Origin: Heteronotia binoei
Lineage: Eukaryota
Length of the DNA: 64,000 nucleotides
Reading direction: 5' to 3'
Assembly: GCF_032191835.1 (NCBI RefSeq)
Contig: NC_083229.1
Coordinates: 43,524,001-43,588,000, forward strand
The translations under genes were made by a program, and so were the position numbers. Below, piece after piece: positions 6,338 through 61,982 of this stretch (positions within the stretch are counted from its first letter, which is position 1; every line of letters starts with the position of its first letter). The notes below the pieces were generated by a model. That model did not search any database, was not told the DNA's origin, and worked only from the letters and a program-made list of their open reading frames with translations.

Positions 6338-6978
6338 CAGCGGCGTCACTAGGGCGGGGCCAAGGGGGCCATCGGCCCTCCCCCAGAGCATTCTCATTGG
6401 CCCCAGGCACTGACCCATGACCCCCCCCAACAGGAAGGGGCTGGCCCTGGGACTAGAACGCTGCTGCTGTGTGGGCTGGCCGGGATTCTGAAACCGGGGC
6501 CGCGCTGCCGCCTCTACCACAAGGGGATCAGCATTCTGTTCAGCGGGGGTGAGTGGGCGGGCTGGCTGATCTTCCCAGCTCACGCTGCCGACGCGTTGCT
6601 TGCTTTCTGTGCATGGAGGGGGGGGGCTGGGCTTCCAAAACTCCAACGGTGCCTCTGGTGAGTGAGTCCTGCATGTTTTCTGTGTGCCTGGGGGTTGGGG
6701 GGCGGAGGGGCTTCCCAAGCCGGTGCCGTGTTGCTTGCTTTCTGTGCATGGGGGGGTGGGCTTCCAAAACTCCAACGGGGTTGGATTACGGGGGCTGGTC
6801 ACGTCACCAGAGGGGGCTGGTCATGTGAACAGAGGGTGGATGAGGGAGGAGCCATGTGAAGTGGGCGGGGTTGTGTGCAGAGGGGGTGACGCAGCCCTCC
6901 AAAAGGGGTGATGCCCAATGGGGGGGTGACTTGAATCAGTTACACCCCAGGGTGCAACCCACCCTAGTGACGCCTCTG
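6338..6978. mobile_element. hAT-type MITE (641 bp)
   Basis: TIRs CAGCGGCGTCACTAGGG / CCCTAGTGACGCCTCTG. Perfect 8-bp TSD CTTCCAGT. Internal duplicated G-rich block at about 6595-6655 / 6728-6785. Confidence 0.9.
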
Positions 6979-7731: not shown

Positions 7732-8414
7732 TGTCACCCTGACAGCTAGCCTGACTGAATAAATGACCAGCCTGATAAAGAAACCTCCTCCAGAGAGGAA
7801 AATGAAAACTCAGCTGAGATAAAGCCCATCAGTCTTCAAGCACAGAAGATGCAGGCTCTTGACAACACACTGACTGTAGCCAATCCGCCTCCTCCAGCTG
7901 CAACTAATTTTCTAGCATCCAGACCAGACATGGAAGGAGAGGCTGGGCCCACTGCTCTTCCAACAGCACCGGTGTGGAGATAGGACCTGAGAACCCATCA
8001 TAGTGAGTATCTGATGACTCACAGACACCTGTCACCAGATGAAGCAGGAGATGAGTACTTGCAGGGATATGTGCCAGAATTAGCAGTGGCTAGCAGCCCA
8101 GGGAGAGCCAGCTATAAATCCAGGCAAGGGGAAGCTGCTAATTATGGATGCAACTTGTACCATGGCTGCATAACCACCGACCCTATAGATTGGAACCTCT
8201 GTTGCTCTGAACATAGACTGGACCCTGGCCAACCTGACTTCTGGACCCCTGAACCTTGGACTGCCTGATGATTCCGCTTCTGGAATCCTGAACCTTTCTC
8301 TTGACCACTCTCCTGCCTGAACCCTTGCTTTGAGTGACTACTCGGTGCTCACTGCCTGCTTGTCCCATGGATCTTTCACCTGCTGCCAGCACCAGACTCA
8401 CTGGGGTCAGTACA
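7732..8414 (+). mobile_element. possible solo LTR (Gypsy-like)
   Basis: TG...CA ends, a TATAAA at about 8113 and repeated gacttctggac/ccttggactgcctga-type motifs. No TSD found. Confidence 0.35.
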
Positions 8415-9144
8415 CCAATAGTCTAGCCTTTCTCTCTTCCCTTCCTTCCACCCAGCTCAGCCACATTGTGCAAAGCAGAAGTTAGAGTGTTGCGTAGGTT
8501 TACCAGATGCCCTCTTTTTAGAGGACACATCCTCTTTTTCTGATGTCCTTCTTTTGGGCTCTTTTTTTAAAAAAAAATGATTAAATGTCCTCTTTTTGTG
8601 TTGAGGGGCTGAGCCTGTTTTGCCCTATAGTCTCCCAGTGAACAGGGCCGGGCCATCCATTAGGCAAACTAGACATCTGCCTAGAGTGCCAGCAGGGCAG
8701 GGAAATTCAGCTCTCCCTCCCCATGCCCTAGGCAAATCCCTCATTTGACTAAGCGCTTCACTCCCCAGCCTCCTCCTCCCTCCCTTCTCCACACCATTTC
8801 AATGTGGGAAGGAAGAAAAAAGATAAATGACAATATAATATTATAGTGCTTTAACACTATGATGCTATAGCAATTACTGAATTTTTTTTTTAAGAATAAG
8901 CTTTCAAAAAAGCCTACTGGTGATGTGGCATGAAAAAATACTGTAAAAATTGTACCCATGAAAGGCTGATGGCAGGAAAGTTGCAGTAATGTGTATGGAA
9001 TCTTTGCAGCACAGCACAATGCAAACCATTCTTTCTAGATAGTGTATTAATTTGTTTGGACTGTGTTTGGGAAGGATTGTACTGAGGATGGGAAACCTTG
9101 GAAACAGAACAGTTACAAAAATCTCCAAAAATCACTCCAATGTG

Positions 9145-10725
9145 AGGAGGAATAGGGACGTCCATGTTAAATCAAGATTTGATGAGGAGATAAGTCCCAC
9201 CTTCCTGGCTCCCTCCCGGCTCCCCCCTCCCAACTACCAGGGACTGTCAAGGGTGGAGCCATCCCCCAGGGCCTGGAGAGGGGGCTGCTGGGAAGGAGGA
9301 GGAGGCAATATGGCTACTGTTGTTTTTTTATTAGGTGAAAAATTATTTGGTGCAAACTTTATTTTTGGGGGGAGCTGTGCTTTTGTACAGGAGGGGTTTT
9401 GGAAAGTGTGCTTTTGTACGTTGTGGGGAAAATGCTTGGGTGCTTTGAAAACTGTATTTGAAAAGGACTGAAATAACAAATTCCTGGAGATTCTCCTGGT
9501 CTCTCCTGGAGAATGTTTTGCCAGGAGTTCTCTCTTCCTGCAAGTCCCAGGGCTTTCCTCACAAGGAACAGTGCCCTTTTTAAAAAGCAAAGCAGCTGCA
9601 TGTTTTTTTCTGTGATAGAGTTCTCTTTTTGCAAGGAACAGACACCATTTATTTTTAAAGCCTGCACAAAAGCTGAGAGAGACAGCTTTTACCAAGAGAA
9701 ATCCCCCACCCCCTTCCCACTGCCAGCCACAGTCAGCAAACTTTAATCATGCAAGCTCACGTTTCCCTCACACAAGCAGCCCCGAAGACTGCGAAGCCCA
9801 AGAGCAAAAAGTTTTCAGCATGCAAACAGAGTTTTAAGCAATAAAACAAAGTTTAACCATTCTAAACATGCTAAGACAGAGAGAGAGAGGAAAATGATTT
9901 TAGCATACAGTGTTTCAAGTCCCTTTAGAACAGAAGTCCCTTCTGTTAGAACAGAGGGAGAAAGAGACAGAGAGACATCCCCATTGCCCCTACAGCCAGC
10001 CATAGATTGCTAGAGTCATTTTAAAATACAGACACAGACACACAGTTTCCTTCAGAGCTTTAGCACATCCCAGGAAAAAAGCCCCTTCAGCTTCCTAAAG
10101 CAGCAGACCTACTTCCCTGAAAGAGAGAGAGCCCCAGAGAAAGACACACACACACACAGAATGCAATTGCTTACTAACCACAGCTTTTAAAAAGCAAAAA
10201 TGGCTTTTAAAACACAGCCACATTTTTTCCTCCTTGAGATGTGTATTGGAAGGCAGGCAGTGAGCTACTGACTAACAGAGTCAGTTGAACAGCAAATGCC
10301 AGCTGAGGATGGGACTAGACAAGCGGGGCTCCAATCAACAGCTTGCCAGACAGAATTTACCCTGGCTGGAAAGATGGTTCTAGCCATTCAGGAAGTAGGA
10401 AATCACATGGTCCTTTTCAGCCAATGGCAGCTACATCCTTCAGCCAGCATTTCTAATGCTGAAGAGGAATCCTCCCCCTCTCCCTTCATTTGCTGCTGTC
10501 TCTGACTTGTTAAAATAAAAAGCACACAAACTTTATAAATAATAATAAGACAATGGATTTGTATTCTGCCCAACACACAGCTCACAGTCTCCTATAGCGT
10601 CCTCCCATACAACAAACATTCTGTGAGGCAGGTGGGTGTGAGAGAACTCTTTTAAAAGCAGTGCTTTCAAGGACAAGCTCTGTGATAGCCACGACAGCCC
10701 TGACAGGTAGGCTTAGGGGGAGGAG
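9145..10725 (+). repeat. Maverick left terminal inverted repeat (about 1.6 kb)
   Basis: Aligns by eye in blocks with the reverse complement of 20284-21730, e.g. 9560-9690 vs 21190-21320 and 10490-10725 vs 20284-20535. The inner boundary is approximate. Confidence 0.88.
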
Positions 10726-10755
10726 TTGGGGAATCAAACCAAAAATGGGCTCTGA
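10535..10755 (-). mobile_element. Squam3-like SINE remnant embedded in left TIR
   Basis: cccatacaacaaacattctgtgaggcaggtggg...tttcaaggacaagctct...ggggaatcaaacc matches the free SINE copies at 24730-25012 and 59985-60237. Confidence 0.75.
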
Positions 10756-11009
10756 ATGAAACAATTAAAAAAACACACGTTTCACAATTTTAAAAGTTTG
10801 CATAGTGGCTGCTAGGGTGCTTTTTAAAAATAAAAATTAAAGTCTGCATAGAGCTGTGTGGAAAACAGAGCAGGCACAGGGCCGTCTTGGACTGCATAGA
10901 TAAGAATGGGGGGGGGGGGGCAACCACGAGGCTAAAAGGGGGCTTTCAGACAGTTGCATTTTAAACAAGCCTGCAGTTTTCCAGGATTTCTGTGCAACAA
11001 AATTTCAGC

Positions 11010-11761
11010 ATGGATCCCCCAAAGCAGCAGCTCTTTAAGGTGGGTGTCATGCCCATGTTTCAAAATTTTAAATGCAAATGGGTGCCAGATTTCTTTTATT
11101 TCTCAGTCCACTTATATTTTCTGTCTACAGAAAATCACATTGTCTATGCCACAGGACCATTCCTGCTCTCTGCAGAAGACCTATACGTCGCTGAGAATGA
11201 GAGTATGTGCAATGTTGCCATCTTCCAGGCAGAATCAGGAGATCTCCAGTTTTCCTGGAGAAAAAGGGTAGACTTTATGGCATAGGGTTTTTTGATGAGT
11301 TCAAAGGATTAATTTCCTTTCTTTTAACAGTTGAAATGCCAATTTCAGTAGACAGTGCCAGTACCCAGCACGTGGCTTCTATACCTGGCACAGCTGACCA
11401 GCAAGTGACTGTCTGGCCTATTCCAGAACCAGCTGTGAAACATGGTAAGATTCTTAAACAGTTTGGCCATTGTGGGGGTAAAGCCTCATAGGTTATTTTT
11501 AACACAATTGTGGCACTTTTATGCAGAGGTGTTTTTTTTTTTTAAATGAGGAGAATGGGACAAGCAGGGACCTCTAGGCAGACCCTGGAGATCTCCAGTT
11601 TCTCTGGAGAAAAAGGGTAGACTCTATCGCTTTGGGTTCAAAGGATTAATTTCCTTTCTTTTTAACAGTGGAAATGTCAATTTCAGGGTGTAGTGGCAGT
11701 CCCCAGCAATTGGCTTCTATTGTGACAGCCTGGTCTGTTCCAGAACCAGCTGTGGAACCTG
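11010..11761 (+). other. putative spliced gene of unknown function inside the Maverick (exons about 11009-11039/43, 11131-11202, 11331-11444, 11669-11761), truncated by copia
   Basis: Three internal exons have polypyrimidine-ag acceptors and gtatgt/gtaaga donors. Their lengths are 72, 114 and 93 nt, all multiples of 3 and all open in phase 1. Exons 3 and 4 are tandem duplicates. Confidence 0.6.
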
Positions 11762-12164
11762 GTAAGATTTTTAAAAGTTCTTAAACATTTTGGCCATGTT
11801 TTGGGTAAATAGCCAATTTTTAACACAATTCTTGTACTTTTATGTTCTTGTGTGTCTGGTGCAACCTAAGGAGTCAGCCAAAATGCAGGGGGCAAAAATG
11901 CAGGAGAGGAATAAATTAATTTTAGTTAAGAACAGATATGCTGGATGAGGCCTGCATTCTATGTCACATAGTGGGGCCAGGATACTGGCTCCAGAGCAAA
12001 CTCCACATGTTTCTACAATCCCCTTTTGAAGCCTGCCACCACCTCCTGCAGCAGTGAATTCCACAGGTCATTGACTTCTTGTGAGAATGGGAAAAAAGTA
12101 CGTCTTTCTACATCCTGCCACCCCCAGGCTGCGTTTATCCAAGTTATAAAGTCTTTTTTTCATG

Positions 12165-14760
12165 GTGTGATGACTAGGCATCTGGGGCATGCGAGTTTCA
12201 ACACAATAAATAAGACCTTGGCTATCCTAACAGGGGAGATACATATTTCGATTGTAAGATATGCGAACAAGCTAAGTCTAAAGCCTATCCTGTAGCAAAA
12301 AGGAGTAACAGGCTCTCTGAGAGGCCATTGCAGTTAATACACGCAGATGTTATTGGCCCCTACCCCCCTAGCATGTCTAAAAATAAGTTTGCCTTAATAC
12401 TGGTCGACGATAAAAGTCGTTTTGCATGGGTATATGCTATGAAAAATAAATCTGAGGTGTTTACCACATTTAAATACTGGGCAAACAGAGTGCAAAAGCA
12501 TCTGAATTGCAAAATTGGTGCTTTGCAAACCGACATTGGGGCGGGGGGGGGGGATTTATTGGACATCAGTTCAAGTCCTGGCTGAGTGAACAGGGGATTG
12601 AGCATAGAATTGCAAATGTGTCAGCACCAGCTGAAAATGGGGTGGCTGAACGAAAAGGGGGCATACTTCAAACTATGCTCCATGCTATGCTCAAGGATAG
12701 TGACCTGAAAATCACATACTGGTGTGAGGCACTAAAAACCTCATGCTTTGTTGTAAACAGACTATGGACACAGGCCATAAATGAGATACCCTATAAAGTG
12801 TTATATGGTAAAAATCCAAGTCTAGAGTTCTTGAGAATTTTTGGCACAAAAGCCTAGGTCAACATACTGGTGAATAAAAGGAGAAAGGGTGGAGCCAGAG
12901 CTAAGAAATTATTATTTCTGAGCTACCAGAACAGTATGAAATCTTATAGGTTTGCAGACAAGCATAACATGCTAAGCTTTAGTAGCTCTGCATCGTTTTG
13001 TGAGGATCAAAATTGGCAAAGGGTTCATGCGAATGAAATGCCTACAACTGCAGTGTTACCTCTATCTCAGCAGGTTGAGGAGGGGAGTGTAACTATAAAG
13101 CAAGAAGCATCCTCACCAAGAGCAAGACAGAGGTCACAGTCCTCTGAAAGTTCAGAGAGTGCAAAACAGGAAATAAGAGTGTCTAGCAGAGTCAATAAAG
13201 GCGTGCCTCCAGAGAGGAACGGGTTTAGTACGGCTATAAACTATGTGTATTCTAAAGAGCCACAAAACTATGAAGAAGTGCTAGCTTTAGACCGTGAGGA
13301 ACAGGATGGTTGGCTGAGTGCAATGCAGAAAGAATCTGACTCACTGAAAGAAAACAATGTATTCACACCTGCGGTTCTACCAGTGGGTAAAACAGTCATC
13401 AGCTGTAAGTGGCTGTATAAACTGAAACGACTGACTGATGGGTCTTTACAGAAAAAGGCGAGGCTGGTAGCTAGAGGGTTTACAAAGCTAGAGGGCAGAG
13501 ATTTTGACGAAAGTTTTGCACCTACTGTAAGAATTGAAACACTGAAAGCAACGCTGTGTAAAGCAGGTGTGAGTGGCATGACAGTACATCATTTTGATGT
13601 TACAACCGCATATTTAAATGCCACCATAAAGGAGGAATTATATCTACAGCCAATTCCTGGGTTCCTTAATACAAATGATTTGCCTGTCCTAAAAATAAAC
13701 AGAGCCTTGTATGGTCTTAGGCAGTCAGCAAATGAATGGAACAAATGTTTAAGTAAAGCACTGGAGAGTATAGGATTTAATCAAAGTGTGGCTGACCTTT
13801 GTTTATTCAGTCATGAAGTATATGGACAAGAATGTTACATTTTATTCCATGTAGATAATTTGTGTTTCCTATGTAAAAGCAATAAGCAACTTGAGTGGTT
13901 TGTGAAAGAAGCTCAAGCTCTGTTTAAAATCAAACACTTGGGGGAGATACAGCACTATCTCGGCATGGAGATTATTAAGAGTGCAGAAGGCCATTACCAA
14001 TTAAGCCAGGAAGAGAAAATTCAAAAGCTCTTAAAAAATGTATGGGATGTCTGAGTCAAAGGTCGTGCAGAGACCTATGACAACTGGTTATATAAAAGAA
14101 GAGGATGATACTGTTCTAGAAAATAAACAAATGTATCAGTCCTTAGTGGGATCACTATTATATTTGGCATGCTGGACCAGACCCGATATTTGTATGGCCA
14201 TACATCTGCTAAGTCAAAAATGTGCAGAGCCAAGGCAAGGGGACTGGATTGCAGCCAAACGGGTCCTTAGGTACCTGAAAGGTACAGCAGGACACAAATT
14301 AATGAGCACTGACAGTGAACAAGTGCTAATGGCTGACAGTGATGCAAGTTGGGGGGAAAGACCAGACGGGAGGTCTACCTCTGGAAGTGCAATATTCATG
14401 TATGGTGCACTAATTAGTTGGAAAGCGCTGAAACAAACGCATATTTCAATGAGTAGCTGTGAAGCAGAATACTCTGCAATAAGTGATACTATCATCCAAA
14501 TTGAATGGTTAAGACAGCTAATGAGGGATCTGGGAATACAAGTTCCAACACCGGTGGAGGTGTATTGTGATAGCACGGCTGCTCAGCATCTAGCAGTTGA
14601 CAGTGGAATAAAAAGCAGGAGTAAGCACATAAATATCCATTACCAAAATGTTAGAGAAGCTGTAAATAAATCTTGTGGTAATGTGGCAGATGTATTTACA
14701 AAGAATGTAGCAGTGGACAGATTCTTAAAGCTGAGAGAAATGTTGAAGCTAGTGGTCTGA
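12165..14760 (+). pseudogene. copia pol (integrase-RT-RNase H), frameshifted
   Basis: LIHADVIGP...LVDDKSRF, ENGVAERK, KWLYKLK...KARLVARGF, HHFDVTTAYLNA, ALYGLRQSANEW, HVDN (canonical YVDD altered), RPDI, DSDASW...STSG, SSCEAEY, YCDSTAA, RSKHINI. Confidence 0.93.
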
Positions 14761-14774
14761 GACATGAGGAGGGG

Positions 14775-15133
14775 TGTCAGAGTATACAGTCATCAGACCA
14801 CAGCTAGAGCTGCAATGATCTACATGACAGTAGATGATCTAACTGACAGTGGACAGCTGGCAGTCCTCCAGATTGCATCAGCTAGGATGATGTAAGGGGA
14901 AAGAGTATAATGACTCAGCACTAAGCTGATTGGATAATGAACTGTGCTGAACTGTATAAATGTAATGTAGCCCAGTGCTACATGTGGTGGATGGATGGTG
15001 GTTGTATATGCGGAGCACTTTGTTAGTCTGTGTAAATATCTGTAAATAAATAGTGTATATAGTTTGCCTAACCGCAGCTGTGTGCAGACTTTATTCCTTC
15101 AAGTCTCAAGCGACCACACACTAAACACCAACA
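14775..15133 (+). repeat. copia 3' LTR (359 bp) preceded by polypurine tract GAGGAGGGG (14766-14774)
   Basis: TGTCAG start immediately after the PPT and CCAACA end. TATAAA and an AATAAA-like signal lie inside. Confidence 0.8.
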
Positions 15134-17940
15134 ATAAACAGTCACACAGAGGAGGGTGACTATGTTCAATTGAGGCTTGAGGGAGGAGGACTACAAAATC
15201 CCATATTTTCATTTTAAAAAAGAAAAAATCCGCTAATTGCTTCTGAGTTTCTGGACTTTGTAGTTATTATGCTCCAAAGTAACAGGGAGGTTCTGAACAA
15301 TGATACTCTGTGTTTAATCGTGACCATATCCAAATCTCCCAGGGGTGGTGCACATCAGAAAATGTCTAAAACCACCATGAAAAAGTCTATTCCTTACAGT
15401 TTAATCATTGAAAAAAAGAGGCGCTTTCTGGTAGATTATACCTATTATGACAACAACCTCTGTTTTGCGGCGGGGCTCATGGGTGTTATGAAAAGAGGAG
15501 AAAGTCCTACTGATGCAGAAGTCTTAGAGGCCACTAAGAAATTACACGCTGATCAGAAACAAGTGGGTCTCAATGACATATCAGTTGTTGAGGAGCATTT
15601 AAAAGTGAACATCCGGGTGGTGCTGTGTTCAGAGAATGGGTGGAACATATTTAAAACACAGTCCCTGAAATATCCTGAGACCCATTTTATGCTTTTGTAT
15701 CAAGATCATTATCTCGGCGTATTGAATGTTAAGTCTTTTACAGGATCTAGGGGTTTTTACAGGAATTGGCACACCCTGTACAATCATAAGCACAATTGTT
15801 CTTTATTTTGCAGAATGTGTGGAACCTCTGAATGTAAAAACATCAGCGGTACCCCTCAGAAATGTCCCAACTGCTATTTCTACTGTAGCAAAGAATTTTG
15901 CTTAAAACTACACGGGAAGCTGGCAGCCAAGGATGAAATTCCCTGTCCCTCCAGGGTTTGATGTAAAAAATGCTAGTCTTATGTCAACATGAACCACCAA
16001 TATAGAGTGCAGGAAGAGGGTCTGCAGACAATGTTGTGGGGCGCTGGAGGAAGGTGAAGATTTTCATGACATGTGTTACTTAGAGCCTCTGAAAGAGCCA
16101 CCTGTTTCAGCAAAGTACATATTTTATGATTTTGAATGTACTCAAGATGGTGGAGAGCATAAGCCCAACTATGTTTTTGCTAAAGCTTTTGACCAAGACA
16201 AAGAATAGCACATAGCCGGTCAAAGTTGGGAATTTAAGGGTGAAACGTGTGTGTATGAGTTTGTGAAGACAATTACTTCCATGAAGCAGTTTAGAGAAAC
16301 GACGTTTATTATTCATAACTCCAAGGCCTACAATTCTTTATCGTTAAGCAGCTGATTGAAGAGAGGATGGATCCCAAGCTAGTTGCCATAGGGGGAAAGC
16401 TGATGTGTGTGAGTATAAAAACCCTGGACATAAAGTTCATCGACTCTCTGAACCACCTCCCCATGGCCCTCTTTAAGCTACCGAAAGCGCTAGGATTTTC
16501 CCAGAGTAAAGGGTATTTTCCTCATTTTTTCAACACTGAGGAAAATCAGGCTTATGTGGGACCTTTACCAGAGCCCAAATACTATGGGGTAGACCAGATG
16601 ATGCCCAAAGAAAGGGAAGATTTCTTAAAATGGCATGAGGAAAACTGCTTTAATATCCTTGATCTCCAAAAAGAACCAGCTTTTTATTGCCAGCAAGATG
16701 TGAACATTTTGGAACAAGCTTGCACTTTATACCGTTCTGAGATTATGAACATGACATCTCAGGACACTCTCTCCATAGATCCCCTATAATATCTTACGCT
16801 AGCGGGGGTCTGTTTAGCCATGTACAGGTTTAATTTTCTGCAGCCTCTCTCTGTGGCCATTCCCCCTCCTGATGGTTATGACAGGCAAACCAAGAGGTTT
16901 TCATCTTCTTCAATTCAGTGGCTCTGCTACTTAGAGCACTCTGAAAAGATCCATATTCACCATGCACTGAAGGGGGGTGAGTTTAAGGTGGGGAAGTATT
17001 CCCTAGATGGGTATGCAGTGGTGGATGGTAAAAGAACAGCCTTCAAATTTATCGGTTGCTTCTGGCATGACTGCACCCAATGCTATGATCCTTTCAAAAT
17101 CAACAGGGCAACTGGGAAACCATTTCAATACCTTTACTCCACCACCAGGCAGAGGAGTAATGACCTTAAAAGAATGGGGTTTGAAGTCAGGAGCATCTGG
17201 GAACATGAGTGGAATCACCTAAAAAACACAGATGAGTCTGTGAAAACCTTTCTTAAATTAGCTCAGTTTCCTGAGCCTCTGGTTCCTAGAGATGCCCTGT
17301 TTGGGGGGCGCACTAACACCATTACCCTCTACTACAAAGTGGAGGAAGGGGAGGAGATCCACTACTACGATTTCACCAGCCTGTACCCCTTTGTGAATGC
17401 TAGGAAAACATACCCTCTAGGCCACTCCGAGATCATCCAGAATAATTTTGCGCCTCTGACAGAATATTTTAGATTGGCTAACATCAAAGTCTATCCCCCG
17501 AGAGGACTTTTCTACCCAGTGTTGCCTTCCAAAGTGGATGGGAAACTGTTTTTTACATTGTGCAGGACCTGTGCCGAAACAAAACAGCAGGAAACCTGCA
17601 CCCATACCGATGAGGAGAGGTCTCTAGTGGGCACGTGGGTTACAGCAGAATTGCAGAGGGCGGTGGACAGAGGTTATCCAATTGTGAAAATCTTCAAGGT
17701 CTGGCATTTCAAGAACAAATCCAATCAGTTGTTTGTGAAATACATTAAAAGACATTTTAGACAGAAACAGGAATCTTCAGGATACCCTGACTGGTGTGTG
17801 ACAGAGGCTAATAAAGAGCAATACATTGCAGATTTTTATAAAGGGGGGGGGGTTTCCTTCTCCGCCCGAGCATGTACACCCCCACTCGCAAAGCGTCAGA
17901 TCGCTAAACTGTTTCTCAATTCTCTGTGGAGTAAATTTGA
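15134..17940 (+). pseudogene. Maverick protein-primed DNA polymerase B (pPolB), disrupted and truncated at both ends
   Basis: N-terminal LQSN...PRGG region, Cys-rich segment, ExoI FYDFEC, IHNSKAY, KFIDSLNHLPMAL, KGYFPHFFN, ExoIII YCQQDVNIL, Vsr-like FIGCFWH..IWEHEW, PRDALFGGRT, motif A YDFTSLYP, motif B KLFLNSLW. Motif C (YxDTDS) is absent. Confidence 0.93.
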
Positions 17941-18023
17941 AATCCAGGGAGAGCATAACCAGCCTGAGAATGGTAATAACTTCTAAACATTGCGGGGTCC
18001 TCATAATCTTTCACAATCACCAT
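17937..18023 (-). pseudogene. N-terminal stub of small Maverick core-protein-like ORF
   Basis: MVIVKDYEDPAMFRSYYHSQAGYALPGFQ has the YYxxQxG..G motif of the small ORF that follows penton in Mavericks/adintoviruses. It is cut by the deletion junction. Confidence 0.55.
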
Positions 18024-18711
18024 TTTTTCCACGGTCGTAAGTGCAACCTTACGATGACCTTGCCGTAATGGAATGACACGTGTTGGTTCTGTGCAGATCG
18101 TTTCAATATGCTGCTTGTTGACGGGAATGTGGTGGGGCTCATCATAGATGACTGTGATAAAATCGTGAGTTTTCCCTCTTATTGGGACACAGTGCAGAAG
18201 GGGCGCTGCAGTGTCCCCTACCAGCTGGTGTTCTATGATATCCATATATAGGTACAGAGAATTAAATCCTTTGGTAATATCCGTGGCATGGTGAATGTTT
18301 TTGAGTGGGGTGTTAAGGGGCGTCCCCAGCAGCAGCGCTACTTGGTCACGCATAATGAAGTGTGTAACATTCAGGCTGACAAATCTAGTTTTCCCTGATG
18401 TTTGGTCATAAAGGAAACGCACATCGAGTGGTGTATCGGGATGTTTCCGTACAGCTGTGTGCATGGTATCTAATATATGGCAAACGTCTTCATAATAACC
18501 ATGCTTCACTTGGAATTCATTTCTAGTAGTCTTGGTGCAGATTTGGAAATCTGAGGCTTACTGATAGTGTACCAGGTGTAGGGGTACTGAATTTCCACCA
18601 ACCCCACTTCCCCTTCAAATCCAAAGGTTTAAACAAGCACACTGTGAAAGCTGAACTGGTATTTTCAGGAAATAGGTCCTTAGAAGCGTTGTAAAACCCA
18701 TCATCATCCAT
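18017..18711 (-). pseudogene. Maverick PZ / minor capsid (penton)-like gene, frameshifted
   Basis: MDDDGFY..NASKDLFPENTSSAFTV.L.KPLDLKGKW / LVEIQYPYTW / KHGYY / SLYLYMDIIEHQLVGDTAAPLL / VSFHYGKVIVRLHLRP, joined across frames. Confidence 0.8.
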
Positions 18712-19830
18712 CCCGTCCACTAATGTCTTCAGCGGGAACCCAGCTGTTAAATTTGGGTGGCCACCCCCTCCACTTCACTAAGAACTGCTTCTGTTTCTTG
18801 TTTGTTCGGGTTTTTATAATTTTCTCTATTTTGTATGTTCTGTCTTTCCAGCGAGTCACTTTTTGCAACGCCTCTGGATAAAACCCTCCCAGGATCGGTT
18901 CACCATCAAAATCTGCCAGGTGGTGCATGGGCCTCTTGCCCCTTCCGCCCACCTTTTCTATAATAAAGATTTCTTTGGTGAAATTCTGTTCATAACCTTT
19001 CTCAAAAGTTCCCTTTGTTCTAGAAACCCTCACACGGTCCCCTTTTCTAAATAAAACTCTTGTTTCTTTTTTGGGGGGGCCCCAGGACTGCACCGTACAC
19101 CCGTCTCCACACAGTAAGCATGTTAGAGGGCTTGACATCAACAGGCCGTGCCTGAATAGTTTTGTGATAGCTGTGGTTATAGCTCTTGACCAGGTCCTGC
19201 AACACATCCATATACTTAAAAGTGTTATTGGCGGTAAAAATACCTCCACATCTTGGTCTTTAAAGTTCTGTTAAATCTCTCCACCACAGAGGCCTTAACT
19301 TCATTGTTGGTGACAAAATGGTGAACTCTATGCTGTTTTAACAGGGCAGCCATTTTTTTTCAGAAACTCTTTGCCCCTGTCCATTTGTAGCTTTTGAGGG
19401 ACCCTCTCTGACCCCCTAAAAATGCTTTTAAAAGCGGATGCCACCTCTGCCCCTCCTTTACTTTTAGAGGCACAGCCCATGTGTATTTAGACAGGATGTC
19501 TATCACCGTTAGAATGTATTTGTAGCCCCTGTTGTACTTGGAATACTCCTTCATATCAACGAGGTCCCCTTGCCATTGTTCATCAAAATCACCCACAATT
19601 ACCTTGTTTCTTTTGAAATGCACCCTGGCCGGTTTATGCAGGGCATAAGCATCTTGATCATTCAGCCACTCTTTCACCTCTCTTCTGCTCAAACTGTGCC
19701 CCCTCTTAGAGGCGGCCTGAAAGAGAGCTTCGATGCCCCCAAAGCTTCCAGCCTCTCCAGGGGTATAATAAATCTCATTTAAAATATCCCAGGTGTGAGC
19801 TATGACACTTTGGTCTCTTTTGCTACAATG
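18704..19830 (-). pseudogene. Maverick retroviral-like c-integrase with C-terminal chromodomain, frameshifted
   Basis: EIYY..G.AGSFGG, QDAYALHKPAR, QWQGDLVDM...YKYILTVIDILSKY.WAVPLK, FRKGDRVRVS...FEKGYEQNFT.EIF, YKIEKII...FLVKWRGWPPKFNSWVPAEDI. Confidence 0.92.
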
Positions 19831-19887
19831 AGAGTATTTTTATTAGAATGTCAATATACAGATAACAGAGAAACCCCCCCCCCCCCT

Positions 19888-20120
19888 TCACTCTGGCTTT
19901 TTCTGGTTTTCATCCTCTGACTCCTTTGCCTGCACAGACTGTATTTCTTCATGACCTTTCACGACCGTGGGCCCATCTGTCTCCACAGGGATCATTTTTT
20001 CACCAACTGCTTCTTCTATGCACAGAACCCAACAGCAATAGAAGAGCTGAACACTTTCCTCTTTCATTTTTACCGGGGGCTGCAGATTCATTGGCACACT
20101 TAAATGTTTCTGGGACACTC
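19888..20120 (-). other. possible acidic ORF / terminal exon(s) between right TIR and integrase
   Basis: The open frame ends EEAVGEK...QAKESEDENQKKPE*. Acceptor ttctgtgcatag at 20016. AATAAA on the minus strand at 19839-19844. Confidence 0.4.
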
Positions 20121-20283
20121 CTGAGAAGACCAGGTGCACCTAGGTCTATCTTGCAGGGTCTGACCCCAAAGATTTTTTTTACTGAATTTTAAAAACATGC
20201 TGTTTTTCATTAAGCCCCACACAACTGTGAGTTTTCAGGTTTGGGGATACCCCCCAGCACCCTAAAAACAATACCACAAGGTT

Positions 20284-20490
20284 CTTCTCCCCCTGAGCCT
20301 ACCTGCCAGGGTTGTTGTGGCTATCATAGAGCTTGTCCTTGAAAGGACTGCTTTTAGGAGAGCTCTCTCACACCCACCTGCCTCACAGAGTGTTTGTTGT
20401 GGGGGAAGACACTATGGGAGACTGTGAGCCACTCTTAGACTCTGTGTGGTGGGCACAATATAAATCCATTGTCTTATTATTGTTTATAAA
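20284..20490 (+). mobile_element. Squam3-like SINE remnant embedded in right TIR
   Basis: Mirror image of 10535-10725 (ttgtccttgaaaggactgc...cccacctgcctcacagagtgtttgttgtggggg...tataaatcca). Confidence 0.75.
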
Positions 20491-21730
20491 GTTTGTGTGC
20501 TTTTTATTTTAACAAGTCAGAGACAGCAGCAAACAAAGGGGGTGGGGTTCTATGCAAGAAAAATGCAGGCTGAAGGGTAGCTCCCATAGGGTGAAAAGGA
20601 TCATGTGATTCCCTGCTTTCTGATTGGCTAAAGCTTCTTTCCAGTTGTTAGATGTGAGTAAAGTCCGTCTGGTAAGCAACTCTGATTGGCCCCTGGCTTC
20701 ATAGTCACCTCCATGGCTGTAGCGGGGTGTTCAACTTACTCTGTTAGAGTCAGTAGCTCCCTGCCTGCCTGGGATATGCATTGCTCAAAGGAAATTCATT
20801 TAGGAAAAAAGTGTCTGTTTTGAAAGTTGTTTTGTTTTTTAAAAGTGGGCCTGGTAAATTTCTCTACTTTTAGGAACGGGACATGCTTAATGCTTAAACT
20901 TTGCTCTGTCTGTGAGAGGGGGGAAGAGAGGATCTCTCTCCCCCTGCTTTTAGGAAGCTGAAGCGGAACAGCGGGGCTTTGGGTGGACTTTCAGCTTTCC
21001 TGGTGTGCATAGCTCATTCTCTGAAGGAAACCGTGTGTCTATGTCTCTGCTTAAACTGCATGGCTGCTGCTTAAACTTTTAAAAGGACACTCTTCCTTAC
21101 AAGGGTTTATGGATTATTTTCTTACCCATCTGTGTCTGCTTGCTGGGGGCTTGTTTTTGCTGTCTGTGGCTGGCAGTGGGAAGGGGGGGGTAAAAGCTGT
21201 CTCTCTCAGCTTTTGTGCAGGCTTTAAAAAATAAATGGTGTCTGTTCCTTGCAAAAAAAGAACTCTCCCACAGGAAAACATGCATCTGCTTTGCTTTTTA
21301 AAAATGATACTGTTCCTTGTGGAAGAACCGCTTATCATGGCTGCTGGAAGCCCCTGCAAATTTTCTCCAGGTGAAGCCTGGAGAATCTCCAGGAATTTGT
21401 GGTTTCAGCTCCCTCCTTTTCAAATAGTACTGCAAAAATATTTCAAAAGCACAAGTCTGCACCCAAGCATTTCCCCTGTATAATAAACCTTTTCATTTTC
21501 CAATGCCCCACTGTACAAATGCACAGCATATAAAAAAATACAGTTTGCACCAAACAATTTCTGTATTAAAAACAACAGTAGCCATATTGCCTTCTTCCCA
21601 GAAGTCCAGCCCCAGGGGGATGGCTCCACCCCTGACAGTTCCAGGTGGGAAGGGGGAGCCAGGAAGGCGGGACTTCCAGTCAGACCCATCAAATCTTTGA
21701 TTTGACATGTGGTAGCCCCCTATTCCTCCT
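20284..21730 (-). repeat. Maverick right terminal inverted repeat (about 1.45 kb)
   Basis: Reverse complement of the left TIR, with substitutions and indels. Confidence 0.88.
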
Positions 21731-23103
21731 AGTGTGGAACCCAAGGCAAAGAAAAATCTTGGTGCAGAAGCAGCCATTTGCAGATTTCATCTATGTCTTC
21801 AAAAGGCCTTGCTATATTTCTGGAAGGCCTCTGGCCTGTGACTCTGAATTAGTCTTACTAAGTGCAACAATGTTGCTCCAAATAACTGGGTCTGAGCTTT
21901 GCAGCCTAATTTTGAGCCCTGAAACAATCCATTCACTGCATTCAATTATTTGGCAGTGGCAGAACTGAAAGGCATCTATCTGTAAATAGTTATCTTGAAT
22001 CAAAAAGACGGCAATCTAGAGAGGACCATTTTTAAAAAATACAAAGGAAAACAGAGAGTGGGGAATTTGTCTAAAGCCCCTAAAGTAACAGTATCCTTGG
22101 AGTATTAGGTTTGGGGAATGTATGACTATTTGTCCTAGGTTGAGGATGCTATAGGCTTTTAAGGACTCTGATGACTTTGGAGCTAAAAGGGCATCAGAAC
22201 CTTATTCATTACCCCCATTTGAACTCTGGTATCATGCAGTAAGTAACATTAGGATTGAGAAGCATAGCCAAATACTTCTTTCCGGTGCTATACCATTCTG
22301 ATACAAGGCAACATAGGCAACTTCCTGCTCCTCTAGTTCTGAGGCCCGTAATTGCACTGCAGCACTAGACTTATTTCTGAGGTTCAGAGGTAAGGAAACA
22401 GGGAACTACTGGTCATCTAGTCCAAAATCTCAGAAGAATCTTATTACTGAACCACTTATCCTGTTTATTTTATTTATTTCAGTTTGCTAGGCTGCCCTTC
22501 CCTGCAAGCTTCCCTGCAAGCAGCACATCAAAACCAAATGCATACACATAAAATTAAAATAACATTAAATACCTTACAATAACTCATCCAAACAAACAAT
22601 ATTAAATCCTATATTCAAGATGACAGTTATATCAGTATCCTGTCCATGCAATTCCTTGTGGGTCTCTACTTGTTATTACTGCTACCATTTCTTTTATACA
22701 CTGTTAAATTGTGAATGTGACAACCATTTCAACTTGTTTTTTTAAAATCTTTTACACCCTTATAGATTCAATATAAAGTCTGTACATATTTTTGTAACAT
22801 ATTAAAATATCTAGCAACTGGGGTGGGATACAAGTCTTTGTAAATAAATAACAGCAAAAGAAATGACACACTCCTAGATTTTTAGTATAGTTCCGGGTGC
22901 CTGTCCATCTGCCCAACATATGTTAGGGAAATTAAGTGCCCCACCTGATAGGGTTACACTTCCAATGACAAGGACTGAAAGCACTGCCTTGAAATCTCTA
23001 ATCTTCAGATAAGGTATCTTGATGACACAGTGCTGCAAGCATCTGTCTAATTGCTGTCCAGGGGAAAAAATGCAAAAGGACAGCCCCAAGGCTCCCAGAG
23101 GGC

Positions 23104-23196
23104 TACAGTGCAGTTCTAAGCAGAGGTACCTCTTTCTAAGTCAATTGAAGTCAGCAGGCTTAGAAGATTGTAACTCTGTTTAGGATGGCACTGTCA
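23104..23196. repeat. about 90-bp palindromic MITE-like repeat
   Basis: acagtgcagttctaagcagag...ctctgtttaggatggcactgt is self-complementary. Related copies at about 4190-4255, 24160-24242 and 49700-49765. Confidence 0.6.
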
Positions 23197-23518
23197 TGAT
23201 GAGTCCTGTTCTTTGAAGCTTTTCTGACATCAGGAGAACAATGTAACCTTAAATGATGTGGATTAGAATGTTTCCAAGGGCACTGGCCTGCAGAATGGGA
23301 CCACTGCACTCCTATCTCCACACACCCCCAATACAAAAGGTTCCACACACACAGTGTGGTTTCTCCAACAATGCTGCTGCGGTTGGAATTAAACTGCCAA
23401 CTTTCTTCTTCAGACCTATAATTACATTGATATTTTAAAAATACTTAATTGAATATTAAAACTTAATTGAATAAAGGAAACAAGTAGCCTTGCTGCATTG
23501 TATAATTGTGTGAAACCC

Positions 23519-23834
23519 AAAGGAAAGGAAAGGTCTTCTGTGCAAGCACCAGTTGTTTCCAACTCTGGGGTGATGTTGCTTTCACAATGTTTTGACGGCA
23601 GACTTTTTATGGGGTGGTTTGCCATTGCCTTCCCCAGTCATCTACACTCCCCCCCCCCCCCCCCGCCCAGCAAGTTGGGTACTCATTTTACTGACCTCGG
23701 AAGGATGGAAGGCTGAGGCAACCTCAAGCTGGCTATCCGAAAACAACCCAGCTTCCACTGGAAATCGAACTCAGGTCGTGAGCAGAGCTTTGGACTGCAG
23801 TACTGCAGCTTTAACACTCTGTTCCATGGGGCTC
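23519..23834 (-). mobile_element. Sauria (Squam1)-type SINE
   Basis: Same family as 7327-7606. Confidence 0.85.
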
Positions 23835-24534
23835 ATGAGAAACCCAAAAGAGCTTGTCAAATAACTGAAATATTAACTGAATTGGGATATTTTCCTACAA
23901 CCCAGAAAGTATATTTTTGTTGACATGAATCTGTAAATTTCTTCTGCAAGTGAAAACTGTGTGTCAAAATACTACATTTTTACACTTTCAACTTTTCCAT
24001 ACACTCTAGTAGATTTGTGGGATATGGTTACTTAGTACCAGAGAAAAAGACAGTAGCATAAAGCCAAGCAGGAATACCTGAAAAAGACTAAGCACAAATT
24101 CACAACAGGCTCCAGCCAAAATGTGCTTAAACTTAATTGATTTTTCAGTAGGTAAAATCTACAGTGTGGCAGAGTTACACCCTTCAAAGACCAATCACAT
24201 CAATGAACTTGGAAGAATATGACTCTGTCTAGCATTGCACAGCTAAATATTTAACGCTCCCTCTGAAATCAATGGGCCATACAGCCCATTCATTAAAAAA
24301 ATATCCTCCTTAATGAGGTTTATTCCCAATAAGTACAGCCTTAGTACTCACATTCTGTGGTCAAGGCAAGCACCTGCAACCAGTGTGCACAACCATGCAC
24401 TGGAAAACTAGGTGCTGATCATGAAATAGGGTTCAGAAATGCTAGATGCAGGGTAAAGCAAGCCCTGGCCTGGATAGATCCAGGCAAGCTGGATCTTGTC
24501 AGATCTTAGAAGCTAGAAGGTTGGCCCTGGTCTT

Positions 24535-24728
24535 ATCGGGCTGTCAGCCTCTGCGTCAGGTGGGGCCTGGAGATCTCCTGCATTTACAACTGATCTCCAG
24601 CTGGCAAAGATCAACTCCCCTGGAGAGAATGGCCGCTTTGTACCATGCTGAGGCCCCTCCCCAAGCTCCACCCTCTCCTGGATCTACCCCCAAAACCTCC
24701 AGATGTTTTCCAAAACAGACCTGGCAAC
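24535..24728. mobile_element. hAT-type MITE (TAGGGTTGCCA family), partial
   Basis: ggagatctcc...acaactgatctccag...cccctggagagaatggc...ctggcaac end. Related copies at about 28418-28600 and 32720-33190. Confidence 0.65.
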
Positions 24729-24729
24729 A

Positions 24730-25012
24730 AAGAAGAAGATGATGATATTGGATTTATATCCCGCCCTGCACTCCGAAGAGTCTCAGAGCGGCTCACAATC
24801 TCCTTTACCTTCCTCCCCCACAACAGACACCCTGTGAGGTGGGTGGGGCTGGAGAGGGCTCTCACAGCAGCTGCCCTTTCAAGGACAACCTCTGCCAGAG
24901 CTATGGCTGACCCAAGGCCATGCAAGCAGGTGCAAGTGGAGGAGTGGGGAATCAAACCCAGTTCTACCCAGATAAGAGTCCGCACATTTAACCACTACTC
25001 CAAACTGGCTCT
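24730..25012 (-). mobile_element. Squam3-like tRNA-derived SINE, full length
   Basis: The reverse complement begins AGAGCCAGTTTGGAGTAGTGG...GGTTTGATTCCC and ends in a tct/tca microsatellite tail. Confidence 0.85.
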
Positions 25013-25489
25013 TCAGGAATATTAGTGCCGTGACCCAGAGGCAGGCAATGGCAAACTAATTCCAACTCTGAACTCTCTTGCCTTGAAAACCCCAGGGGGT
25101 CGCCATAAGTCAGCTATGGCTTGACAGCACTTCCCGCCACCACCAGGGCAAGGGAAATCTCAGAGCCCTTCAGCAGAGAGCGGACCCTTGTTTCTCAAAG
25201 ATCTCCTCAACGAGGGCCATATTGTAAGAACCCTAAGATACCGATGCCTTAGGTGTGTCAGAGCATTAGCCATGTTTTTTGCAGTTGTGGCGCGTCTCTT
25301 TCTGCAAAGCTACACTATTTTAATATTAAATGAGGAAAGTTCCTTGAAATACAGAACAGGTGGCAAGCCGAGGAATAGCAGACACTGTACAAGGCCGAAG
25401 GATTGCAAATACTATTCCAGCTCACTGAGTGCATATGTAATTATATTATTCTCTCTCTCCCGCTCCACAATATTTACTGTATACCAATA

Positions 25490-26480
25490 TAGCGCATTCC
25501 TCCCTCCCCCGCCTTCGGCTCAACTTTTCAGAGACGGAGCCGAGCAGGAAGCACTTCCTCCGCGCCCCTCCCCCTCTCCATTGATCAACTTGTACCTTGG
25601 AGATAGCCTTGGCGAGCCTTTCCCTCCCCCCCCCCACCCCCGGCTGCCGCCAGCTTCTCTCGCCTCTTTCCTCCGTTTGTCCCTCTCCCCTCCCCCCCTC
25701 GCCACTGCCTTGTGACACGCACATTGTGGGAGTGTGTGTGTGGATAGGGGGCTCTTCGCTTGCCAGCTTCTGGCTGCTCCCTACTGCAGTAGTCATGGCT
25801 GCGGATGGGGTGGATGAACGCTCCCCTTTGCTGTCAGCCCCCGGCTCGGGCAATGTCACGCCTACCGCACCGCCGTATTTTCCAGAAAGCAGCCCTAGAG
25901 GTAAGAGTAGGGAAGCGGCCCCCTCCCCCCCAACACCCGCTGCCCCTGGAAGCTTCTCCCCAGCGACCCTCCTTTTTGCTGGTATCGCCTCTTGGCTTTC
26001 GTTTCTAACTTAAGGAGGACGGATGGCGGGGAGAAGGGCGTATTGTTGATGCCTTGTCGGTAGCCACGTTAGAGGATTTTATGCCATTGCAGGGGTTTCC
26101 CCGGCGTCTCAGTAAGAGGAGAAAGTGTTTGTGTGGGCGGGGGAGTTTGCAGTGTGTGTCTCCCCCCCCCCCCCCGTGTGCATTGTTAATGGCAGGGAAA
26201 GAATCGATCGTGCAATCTATCACACTTCTTGTTCTTCGGGGTGTGTGTGTCCGGCTTTGGCGAAAATTTGAGGGGGGGGAGGGCGAGCATTTCCTGAGCA
26301 CATGGCTCTCGTGTCCTTGAAGGAAGGGTTGAGCTCTGGGGATTTAACTCTGCATTGCTTCTCATTTTTCCCCTCCCCCAATTCTGCTGAATCAGGGGGC
26401 TTTCTGGGAGGGGGGGGAGACTTAGTCCCTCCGACGCCCTAACACACACGCGGGGGGGGGGGCGGCGTGCATATCTTCTG
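25490..26480 (+). promoter_or_regulatory. CpG/GC-rich promoter and first-exon region of PIP4P2
   Basis: CpG density is visibly higher than in the flanks. GC boxes and opposed ETS cores (caggaagcacttcctcc, about 25544-25561) lie upstream of the ATG. Confidence 0.7.
25795..25900 (+). CDS. PIP4P2: PIP4P2 (TMEM55A) coding exon 1
   Basis: gtcATGG start; [35 protein letters not shown]; donor gtaaga; 106 nt. Confidence 0.97.
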
Positions 26481-36713: not shown

Positions 36714-36952
36714 CAGAGTCTGGTGTAGTGGTTAAGTATGCAGACTCTTACCTGGGAGAAGCGGATTTGATTCCCCACTCCTCCACTTGCAGCTGCTGAA
36801 ATGGCCTTGGGTCAGCCATAGCTCTGACAGAGGCTGTCCTTGAAAGAGCAGTTACTGTGAGAGCTCTCTCAGCCCCACCTACCTCACAGGGTGTTGTGGG
36901 GGAGGAAGATAAAGAGTGAAGGGCTGGGGTATAAATCCAATATCATTATCAT
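36714..36952 (+). mobile_element. Squam3-like SINE
   Basis: tggtgtagtggttaag...ggatttgattccccactcctcc...tataaatccaatatc. Confidence 0.85.
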
Positions 36953-59984: not shown

Positions 59985-60237
59985 TGCAGATTAATACCCC
60001 ACCCTTCTCTCTCAATCAGAGACTCAGAGTGGCTTACAATCTCCTATATCTTCTCCCTCCCCACAACAGACACCCTGTGAGGTGGGTGGGGCTGAGAAGG
60101 CTCTCACAAGGACAACTCCTGCGATAGCTATGGCTAACCCAAGGCCATTCCAGCAGGTGGAAGTGGAGGAATGGGGAATCAAACCCAGTTCTCCCAGATA
60201 AGAGTCTGTGCTCTTAACCACTATACCAAACTGGCTC
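59985..60237 (-). mobile_element. Squam3-like SINE
   Basis: Same family as 24730-25012. Confidence 0.85.
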
Positions 60238-61764: not shown

Positions 61765-61982
61765 TATGAACATGAACATATGAAGCTGCCTTATACTGAA
61801 TCAGACCCTTGGTCCATCAAAGTCAGTATTGTCTTCTCAGACTGGCAGCGGCTCTCCAGGGTCTCAAGCTGAGGTTTTTCACACCTATTTGCCTGGACTC
61901 TTTTTTGGAGATGCCAGGGATTGAACCTGGGACCTTCTGCTTACCAAGCAGATGCTCTACCACTGAGCCACCGTCCCTCCCC
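61765..61982 (-). mobile_element. tRNA-derived SINE with LINE-like 3' tail (Squam2-like)
   Basis: The reverse complement has the head GGTGGCTCAGTGGTAGAGC...GGTTCAATCCC and a tail ending gcagcttcatatgttcatg. An 85-nt tail copy lies at 49342-49426. Confidence 0.8.

What the first reader, a model, noticed from the sequence alone, without database searches (positions are those of the whole stretch)
9145..21730. Precisely bounded gecko Maverick/Polinton with unusually long (about 1.5 kb) TIRs and 6-bp TSD
Seen: AGGAGGAATAGGG at both termini, flanks AATGTG/AGTGTG, and pPolB (+) converging on integrase-penton-core ORF (-). Established: Mavericks have AG-initiated TIRs, 6-bp TSDs, pPolB and c-integrase, and are known from non-avian reptiles. 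Inference: a genuine integrase-mediated insertion with both ends intact, about 4 kb upstream of the PIP4P2 start codon. The AGGAGG terminus and TIR length may define a distinct family.
Basis: partly seen in the sequence, partly recalled or inferred. Interest (0 to 1): 0.7.

Follow-up and report, generated by a model that had tools for sequence, protein, structure and literature searches.

The report
Decayed gecko Maverick with mismatched ends
This is a real but broken virus-like transposon (Maverick/Polinton) in a gecko genome that has lost half its genes and carries a nested retrotransposon; its only unusual traits are a new end signature and a host repeat copied into both of its otherwise mismatched ends.

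Summary
Confirmed as a single, precisely bounded group-I vertebrate Maverick insertion at 9145-21730: 13-bp perfect ends AGGAGGAATAGGG, 6-bp target duplication matching 5 of 6, pPolB in a 100/100 clade with Paroedura gecko Mavericks, integrase and a penton-fold gene on the minus strand, 4,065 bp before a Tmemb_55A (PIP4P2-type) ATG. It is a dead fossil. A central deletion fuses pPolB motif B to codon 28 of the ORF after the penton, leaving no room for the pol C-terminus, ATPase, PM, PZ, protease or major capsid gene. The arms (1,581/1,447 bp) are at the top of the published range, and about 180 bp of each is a gecko Squam3B3-type SINE. They are only about 80% alike, with far more gaps than the decay of the element's own genes predicts, so they were already unequal at insertion. 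The SINE block is 90% alike and descends from one SINE insertion. AGGAGG is absent from a 3,511-locus vertebrate survey. Family status and SINE capture before integration could not be tested: no genome or reads were held.

The parts
9139..9144 (+). left target-site duplication AATGTG
9145..10725 (+). left TIR arm, 1,581 bp, starts AGGAGGAATAGGG
10545..10740 (-). 5'-truncated Squam3B3-type SINE piece in the left arm; runs about 15 bp past the end of arm similarity
   Evidence: compared by eye with the consensus rows in supplement 1 of PMC7983390
11010..11285 (+). 91-codon ORF of unknown status in the accessory region
   Evidence: no Pfam or NCBIfam hit; Atlas best 0.85, lead level only
11224..11844 (+). 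tandem duplication of a unit of about 330 bp, 83% of gap-free columns
12170..15133 (+). nested 5'-truncated Ty1/Copia retrotransposon: integrase, RT, RNase H-like end, PPT 14766-14774, 3' LTR 14775-15133 (TG...CA, 359 bp); no second LTR found in 10726-12300; left boundary approximate
   Evidence: Pfam RVT_2 E 1e-50, SH3_retrovirus, rve
15134..17938 (+). pPolB pseudogene, residues 239-1174 of 1,399 of the closest intact relative; 5 stops, 2 frameshifts; group-I-type insert of about 130 aa; motif C region absent
17935..17942 (.). deletion junction joining pPolB motif B to the ORF after the penton; TTG can be read as belonging to either side
17940..18023 (-). first 28 codons of the ORF in the PW position
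   Evidence: position after the minor capsid gene in the layout of PMC8097293; no family hit
18020..18711 (-). minor capsid (penton) pseudogene, 3 frameshifts
   Evidence: 66% identity over 221 codons to intact P0135; the P0135 model matches mavirus, Sputnik and adenovirus pentons
18707..19803 (-). c-integrase pseudogene (rve + chromo), 4 frameshifts
   Evidence: 74% identity over 364 codons to intact P0121
20284..20477 (+). same SINE piece in the right arm, forming its inner end
20284..21730 (-). right TIR arm, 1,447 bp, ends CCCTATTCCTCCT
21731..21736 (+). right target-site duplication AGTGTG
25795..25900 (+). host PIP4P2/TMEM55A-type exon 1 (context, not part of the element)
   Evidence: later exons hit PF09788 at E 7e-23 and 5e-16

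Best explanation
A group-I vertebrate Maverick of a gecko lineage was inserted by its own (or a relative's) c-integrase into the intergenic DNA 4 kb upstream of PIP4P2, making a 6-bp duplication, and has decayed neutrally since (about 3-7% per site). Shown: ends, duplication, gene remnants, clade, breaks. Inferred from family knowledge: the parent copied itself as a linear, protein-primed DNA whose AGG-AGG end is a variant of the AGT-AGT repeat thought to allow jump-back priming. Shown: one central deletion removed everything between pPolB motif B and the start of the PW-position ORF, and a Copia inserted at pPolB codon 238, after which its 5' half and the pPolB 5' end were lost. Inferred: the two arms were already unequal when the element integrated (a lineage with poorly homogenised long TIRs, or a recombinant of two sublineages). 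One host Squam3B3-type SINE insertion was later copied from one arm to the other by a local conversion or template switch at about the time of integration. The copy has no coding function now.
For: Ends and duplication. pPolB: 1,175 of 2,879 candidates at E<=1e-20; the top three are 70-71% identical and two are Paroedura picta. In a tree of 46 rows (the window's unbroken ORF plus 45 hand-picked of the 120 listed hits) the window sits with these three at 100/100, inside a lizard set at 99/97. Integrase and penton. Decay clock: 5 stops in about 1,520 codons gives d about 0.03 (95% range 0.01-0.07), and 9 frameshifts in 4,573 nt give 2.0 per kb. Inner SINE block: 24 mismatches in 251 columns, 19 transitions to 5 transversions, 1 gap against 1.0 expected. 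Four outer blocks (poorly alignable middle block 9741-10250 left out): 19 non-triplet gaps against 3.0 expected, P 4e-10, or 0.002 if non-coding DNA is three times as indel-prone. Block identities are heterogeneous, P 2e-9. In 108 columns where three free SINE copies agree, the two arm pieces share 23 differences and have only 6 and 8 of their own; both join the same flank.
Against: The duplication has one mismatch. The empty site and other copies were not seen. The outer arms hold about twice the simple-repeat content of the coding DNA (0.117 v 0.066), which raises their indel rate, though the inner block has the same content (0.112) and one gap. One outer block (9560-9740) is also highly alike (94%). 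Block borders were drawn after looking at the alignment. Some frameshifts lie in homopolymer runs and could be assembly errors. Absence of ATPase, PM, PZ, protease and major capsid rests on lack of room and on a Pfam scan of 16 chosen ORF pieces, not on searches with those proteins.
Confidence: 0.75

Rival explanations
1. The arms were identical at insertion, and all differences are later neutral decay of an old copy, with simple-repeat slippage inflating gaps and later gene conversion re-homogenising two patches (9560-9740 and the SINE block).
For: Higher simple-repeat content in the arms; patchy identity fits conversion tracts; the SINE reaching both arms needs no replication cycle under this reading.
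Against: Arm similarity ends inside the SINE, so a conversion tract had homology on one side only.
Confidence: 0.15
2. The locus is a chimera made in the host chromosome: the left half of one Maverick and the right half of another, joined at the 17938 junction or in the Copia region by a large deletion or ectopic recombination.
For: Explains unequal arms and the central deletion in one step; the junction has a short shared TTG.
Against: The flanks match 5 of 6 in the only register with perfect ends (P about 0.005), which two independent insertions would not give. The SINE block is more alike than the rest of the arms.
Confidence: 0.06
3. The deleted form was itself a mobile non-autonomous family, deleted before insertion and moved in trans by an intact gecko Maverick. 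This can hold together with the best explanation; it changes only the order of events.
For: Both ends are kept, the junction is clean, and intact gecko-clade pPolB and integrase genes exist (P0001, P0002, P0121, P0122).
Against: No second copy seen. Non-autonomous copies were reported absent in Anolis (PMC3014272, passages). Fossils lacking various core genes are the rule, at 96% of loci (PMC8097293).
Confidence: 0.15
4. The arms are a host segmental inverted duplication unrelated to the Maverick genes.
For: The arms contain a host SINE.
Against: Similarity starts exactly at an AG-type end with a 6-bp duplication outside. The outer arms match nothing else in the window. The genes converge between the arms in the standard layout.
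Confidence: 0.02

Closest known systems
Vertebrate group-I Mavericks/Polintons (proposed 'Alphaproteovirus', PMC8097293; beta adintoviruses, 10.1101/697771)
   Same: Two converging modules, pPolB versus int-mCP-PW; 6-bp duplication; AG-initiated repeated end; pPolB insert of group-I size; degraded state like 96% of surveyed loci.
   Different: End motif AGGAGG//CCTCCT: AGGAGG has 0 occurrences in the survey's table of 3,511 loci (1,345 with TIRs); CCTCCT is a 3' motif in 2 rows, each paired with AGTAGG. Arms are at the top of the length range, mosaic, and hold a host SINE. Core genes are deleted.
Paroedura picta Maverick pPolB genes (P0002 = XP_077198782.1, P0003) and the unnamed 16,744-bp ENA contig protein P0001
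   Same: 70-71% pPolB identity, one clade at 100/100.
   Different: Those pPolB genes are full length. The one P. picta locus with mapped TIRs in the survey ends AGTAGT (1 of 3 rows). Whether it is the locus of P0002 or P0003 is unknown.
Tuatara (AGTAGG) and pit-viper (AGTAGA) Maverick end variants
   Same: Lineage-specific changes of the AGTAGT end in lepidosaurs.
   Different: Here both triplets changed, so a perfect (AGG)2 repeat is kept.
Anolis carolinensis Polinton (PMC3014272)
   Same: Lizard host, 6-bp duplication.
   Different: 17.5 kb, eight intact ORFs, 584-bp TIR, AGTAGT ends; pPolB 57% identical.
Ty1/Copia LTR retrotransposons; Squam3B3 SINE (PMC7983390)
   Same: Passengers inside the element: RVT_2, INT-RT order, PPT and TG...CA LTR; SINE with tRNA head, B3-position insert and simple-repeat tail.
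   Different: The Copia lacks its 5' LTR and gag. The SINE pieces in the arms are 5'-truncated and 65-70% identical to three free copies in the window.

Membership tests
Maverick/Polinton | protein-primed DNA polymerase B | tested here: met
   PF03175 above cut-off; 65-71% to intact relatives; present as a truncated pseudogene
Maverick/Polinton | retroviral-like c-integrase with chromodomain | tested here: met
   pseudogene
Maverick/Polinton | long TIRs with a short repeated end motif | tested here: met
   1,581/1,447 bp, imperfect; (AGG)2 at both ends
Maverick/Polinton | 6-bp target-site duplication | tested here: met
   5 of 6 in the only register with perfect ends; empty site not seen
Maverick/Polinton | single jelly-roll minor capsid protein | tested here: met
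   tested on the intact relative P0135 (66% identical): pLDDT 94.7; Foldseek mavirus penton E 1e-10; VIA Z 13.5, rmsd 4.6, 236 aligned to an aviadenovirus capsid chain; Z 12.7, rmsd 6.0, 227 aligned to mavirus penton
Intact (autonomous) vertebrate Maverick | eight unbroken core ORFs including ATPase, protease and major capsid protein | tested here: not met
   pPolB runs directly into the PW-position ORF at 17938; no C-terminal pPolB hit in the window; 5 stops and 9 frameshifts in what remains
Group-I Maverick | VSR-like insert of about 140 aa in pPolB (PMC10328495, passage) | tested here: met
   179 residues where the Pfam profile skips 45; weak RAP hit inside, E 3e-4, below cut-off; nuclease fold not tested
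Vertebrate Maverick PW protein | homology to PW | tested here: inconclusive
   position fits; the 28 residues hit nothing in Pfam or NCBIfam; no PW sequence was on hand
Distinct (AGG)2-ended gecko family | several independent insertions with the same ends | not testable with these tools
   no genome held, no run listed
Ty1/Copia | RVT_2 reverse transcriptase downstream of integrase, PPT and LTR | tested here: met
   5' half missing
Squam3B3 SINE | Squam3B body with the B3 insert | tested here: met
   exact 14- and 15-mers of the free copy occur in the Squam3 alignment; an insert of about 30 nt at the B3 position in the free copy and both arm pieces, judged by eye; only part 1 of 2 of the supplement plus passages seen

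The most novel reading that the evidence does not exclude
This copy belongs to an undescribed gecko Maverick family with (AGG)2 ends and heritable, unequal left and right TIRs, whose progenitor caught a host Squam3B3 SINE while integrated, left the chromosome, copied the SINE into its other arm during protein-primed replication and integrated again here. A host SINE fixed in both arms of many copies would be a genomic record that integrated vertebrate Mavericks re-enter replication, a step that has been proposed but not observed.
Probability: 0.35. Interest if true: 0.6.

Novelty: new variant of a known kind. Interest (0 to 1): 0.35.

Why it matters
The element itself is an ordinary fossil of a class already recorded in geckos. 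Two details have modest value. First, an (AGG)2 end, the same at both termini, keeps the triplet repeat predicted for jump-back priming and would be missed by surveys seeded on AGTAGT/AGAGAG ends; 4 of the 5 gecko loci in the 2021 survey have no mapped TIRs. Second, a gecko-specific SINE shared by both arms gives a cheap genome-only test of whether integrated Mavericks leave the chromosome and replicate again. It also warns that TIR divergence cannot be used to date such insertions.

Tried and rejected
Whole-genome search: no genome held. Sequencing runs for 8500-18400: none was listed, so no reads were laid. IMG/VR scans with P0001, P0121 and a 20-mer conserved in both arms: no confirmed locus. 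JGI metagenome scan: 1 of 63 stretches, a 39-residue weak match, not used. pPolB N-termini of the 40 best relatives against 9145-15133 and 17941-21730: one weak hit (E 0.011) lying inside the Copia, rejected; pPolB C-termini of four relatives: no hit in the window. A second Copia LTR in 10726-12300: score at shuffle level. TIR extension beyond 10725/20284: within shuffle range. ORF 11010-11282: nothing in Pfam, NCBIfam or the Atlas above lead level. Sequence search of PDB with the penton alignment: nothing below E 0.05; the fold search settled it. Rfam at gathering threshold, 8000-26000: 0. A first Pfam test of PIP4P2 exon 1 used a wrong frame; redone, where exon 1 alone has no hit but three later pieces do (two above cut-off). 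Earlier findings: four look-ups empty, one gave six loosely related notes. Literature: eight searches listed no paper on a SINE in Maverick TIRs or an AGGAGG end; most subscription papers and Repbase are not covered, so this is weak evidence of absence. The supplementary figure on TIR sizes in PMC8097293 was not seen, so the species with the 1,447-bp TIR is unknown; its match to the right arm's length is taken as coincidence.
Full report
Observation. The 13-mer AGGAGGAATAGGG starts at 9145 and its reverse complement ends at 21730, each once in the window. The flanks are AATGTG and AGTGTG. Of nine registers tried, only this one gives perfect ends and a 5-of-6 direct repeat; chance is about 0.005. 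The arms span 9145-10725 and 20284-21730, and nothing beyond aligns above shuffles. The host ATG lies at 25795, 4,065 bp to the right, and downstream exons hit Pfam Tmemb_55A; the name PIP4P2 for this family member is recalled.

Genes. The pPolB remnant at 15134-17938 matches residues 239-1174 of a 1,399-residue relative at 65-71%, with 5 stops (15215, 15959, 15974, 16206, 16787) and 2 frameshifts (near 16003 and 16334). It carries about 130 extra residues between the exonuclease and polymerase parts, the mark of group-I Mavericks (PMC10328495, passages). The search found 1,175 of 2,879 candidates at E<=1e-20; the top three are an unnamed ENA protein and two Paroedura picta proteins. A tree of the window's unbroken 383-residue piece and 45 hand-picked of the 120 listed hits puts the window with these three at 100/100. 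On the minus strand are an integrase (19803-18707; 74% over 364 codons to P0121; 4 frameshifts) and a gene 66% identical over 221 codons to P0135 (3 frameshifts). A model of P0135 from a 100-row alignment (pLDDT 94.7) matches mavirus, Sputnik and adenovirus pentons, so the penton label is right. Next come 28 codons of the ORF in the PW position of the published layout (PMC8097293, parts 1-4 of 8 read); its identity rests on position alone.

pPolB stops inside motif B at 17938 and runs straight into the PW-position ORF. No pPolB C-terminus is found in the window, and there is no room for ATPase, PM, PZ, protease or major capsid; these were not searched with their own queries. From about 12170 to 15133 lies a Copia remnant (RVT_2 E 1e-50) with a polypurine tract and a 359-bp 3' LTR that ends one base before pPolB codon 239. 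Its 5' LTR and gag and the first 238 pPolB codons are gone. It has 1 stop in 809 codons, which fits a later arrival. Maverick-derived DNA totals about 9.6 kb, against a mean of 16.9 kb for intact elements.

The arms. Whole-arm identity is 79-84% of gap-free columns with 41-62 gap events, by gap penalty. The element's own genes give a decay clock: d about 0.03 from stops (95% range 0.01-0.07) and 2.0 frameshifts per kb. The innermost block (10475-10725) fits that clock: 90% alike, 19 transitions to 5 transversions, 1 gap against 1.0 expected. The poorly alignable middle block was left out, and one of the four (9560-9740) is itself 94% alike. Block borders were set after seeing the alignment, and the outer arms have twice the simple-repeat content of the genes, but so has the inner block. 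I infer that the arms were already unequal at integration.

The SINE. About 180 bp at the inner end of each arm match three free SINE copies in the window. The free copy shares exact words with the Squam3 alignment and has an insert where Squam3B3 has one; the arm pieces carry it too (judged by eye). [quoted passage not shown] The two arm pieces join the same flank and share 23 differences from the free copies, against 6 and 8 of their own in 108 columns: one insertion, then copied. Their divergence (about 5% per arm) is not lower than the age from stops, so copying happened at, before or soon after integration. Capture by an integrated progenitor that replicated again, and gene conversion at this locus, both remain open. 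Two earlier notes of this scan (e1-7786975, e1-7804408; unchecked, other genomes) describe Maverick-ended elements with long near-identical arms, one thought to arise by end copy-back; they are leads only.

How it works. Shown: an integrase-type insertion, later broken by deletion, Copia insertion, stops and frameshifts; it encodes nothing whole now. From family knowledge: the parent replicated as linear DNA by protein priming, and the repeated end is thought to allow jump-back (PMC8097293). AGG-AGG keeps a perfect triplet repeat and is the same at both ends, so it is more likely a lineage trait than decay. No effect on PIP4P2 was tested.

Comparison. Intact vertebrate Mavericks have TIRs of 46-1,447 bp, mean 402; 100-1,500 bp is the general range (PMC10748475, passages). 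These arms are long but not outside that range, less so without the SINE. In the survey's table of 3,511 loci AGGAGG occurs 0 times, and CCTCCT is a 3' motif in 2 rows paired with AGTAGG. AGTAGG occurs 37 times; the 24 places seen are nearly all tuatara. AGTAGA marks pit-viper copies. The survey was seeded on the two known motifs, and 4 of its 5 gecko rows have no mapped TIRs, so its silence is weak evidence. Eight literature searches listed nothing on a SINE within Maverick TIRs; Repbase and most subscription papers are not covered.

Verdict. A genuine, degraded member of the gecko Maverick clade, and not an intact one. The new end motif and the mosaic, SINE-bearing arms make it a minor new variant. 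Interest 0.35. The boldest open reading, a family that caught a host SINE and then replicated again, has probability about 0.35 and would merit 0.6; it can be tested with the host genome alone.

Noticed in passing
P0001 and P0122: A full-length gecko-clade pPolB and integrase are both listed on an unnamed ENA contig of 16,744 bp, the size of a whole vertebrate Maverick. It may be an intact element; that both lie on the same contig is inferred from the equal length.
   Followed up: partly
window 6338-6978: 641-bp non-coding element with 17-bp inverted ends (16 of 17) and a perfect 8-bp duplication CTTCCAGT; hAT-type by the 8-bp duplication (recalled rule).
   Followed up: partly
window 24749-25012, 36717-36950, 59989-60237: Three free Squam3B3-type SINE copies, 86-89% alike over the compared part; they fit a gekkonid host.
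   Followed up: yes
window 11224-11844: Tandem duplication of a unit of about 330 bp inside the accessory region, 83% alike: like the outer arms, older than the decay of the genes would suggest.
   Followed up: partly
P0003: A Paroedura picta gene model named ephrin type-B receptor 1 carries a whole pPolB; probably a Maverick merged into the host gene by annotation.
   Followed up: no
window 61906-61978: ARAGORN calls a tRNA-Thr(GGT) on the minus strand; may be a SINE head.
   Followed up: no
window 12145-12172: TATAAA followed by two ATGs just before the Copia remnant begins; possibly what is left of the pPolB promoter and start, not tested.
   Followed up: no
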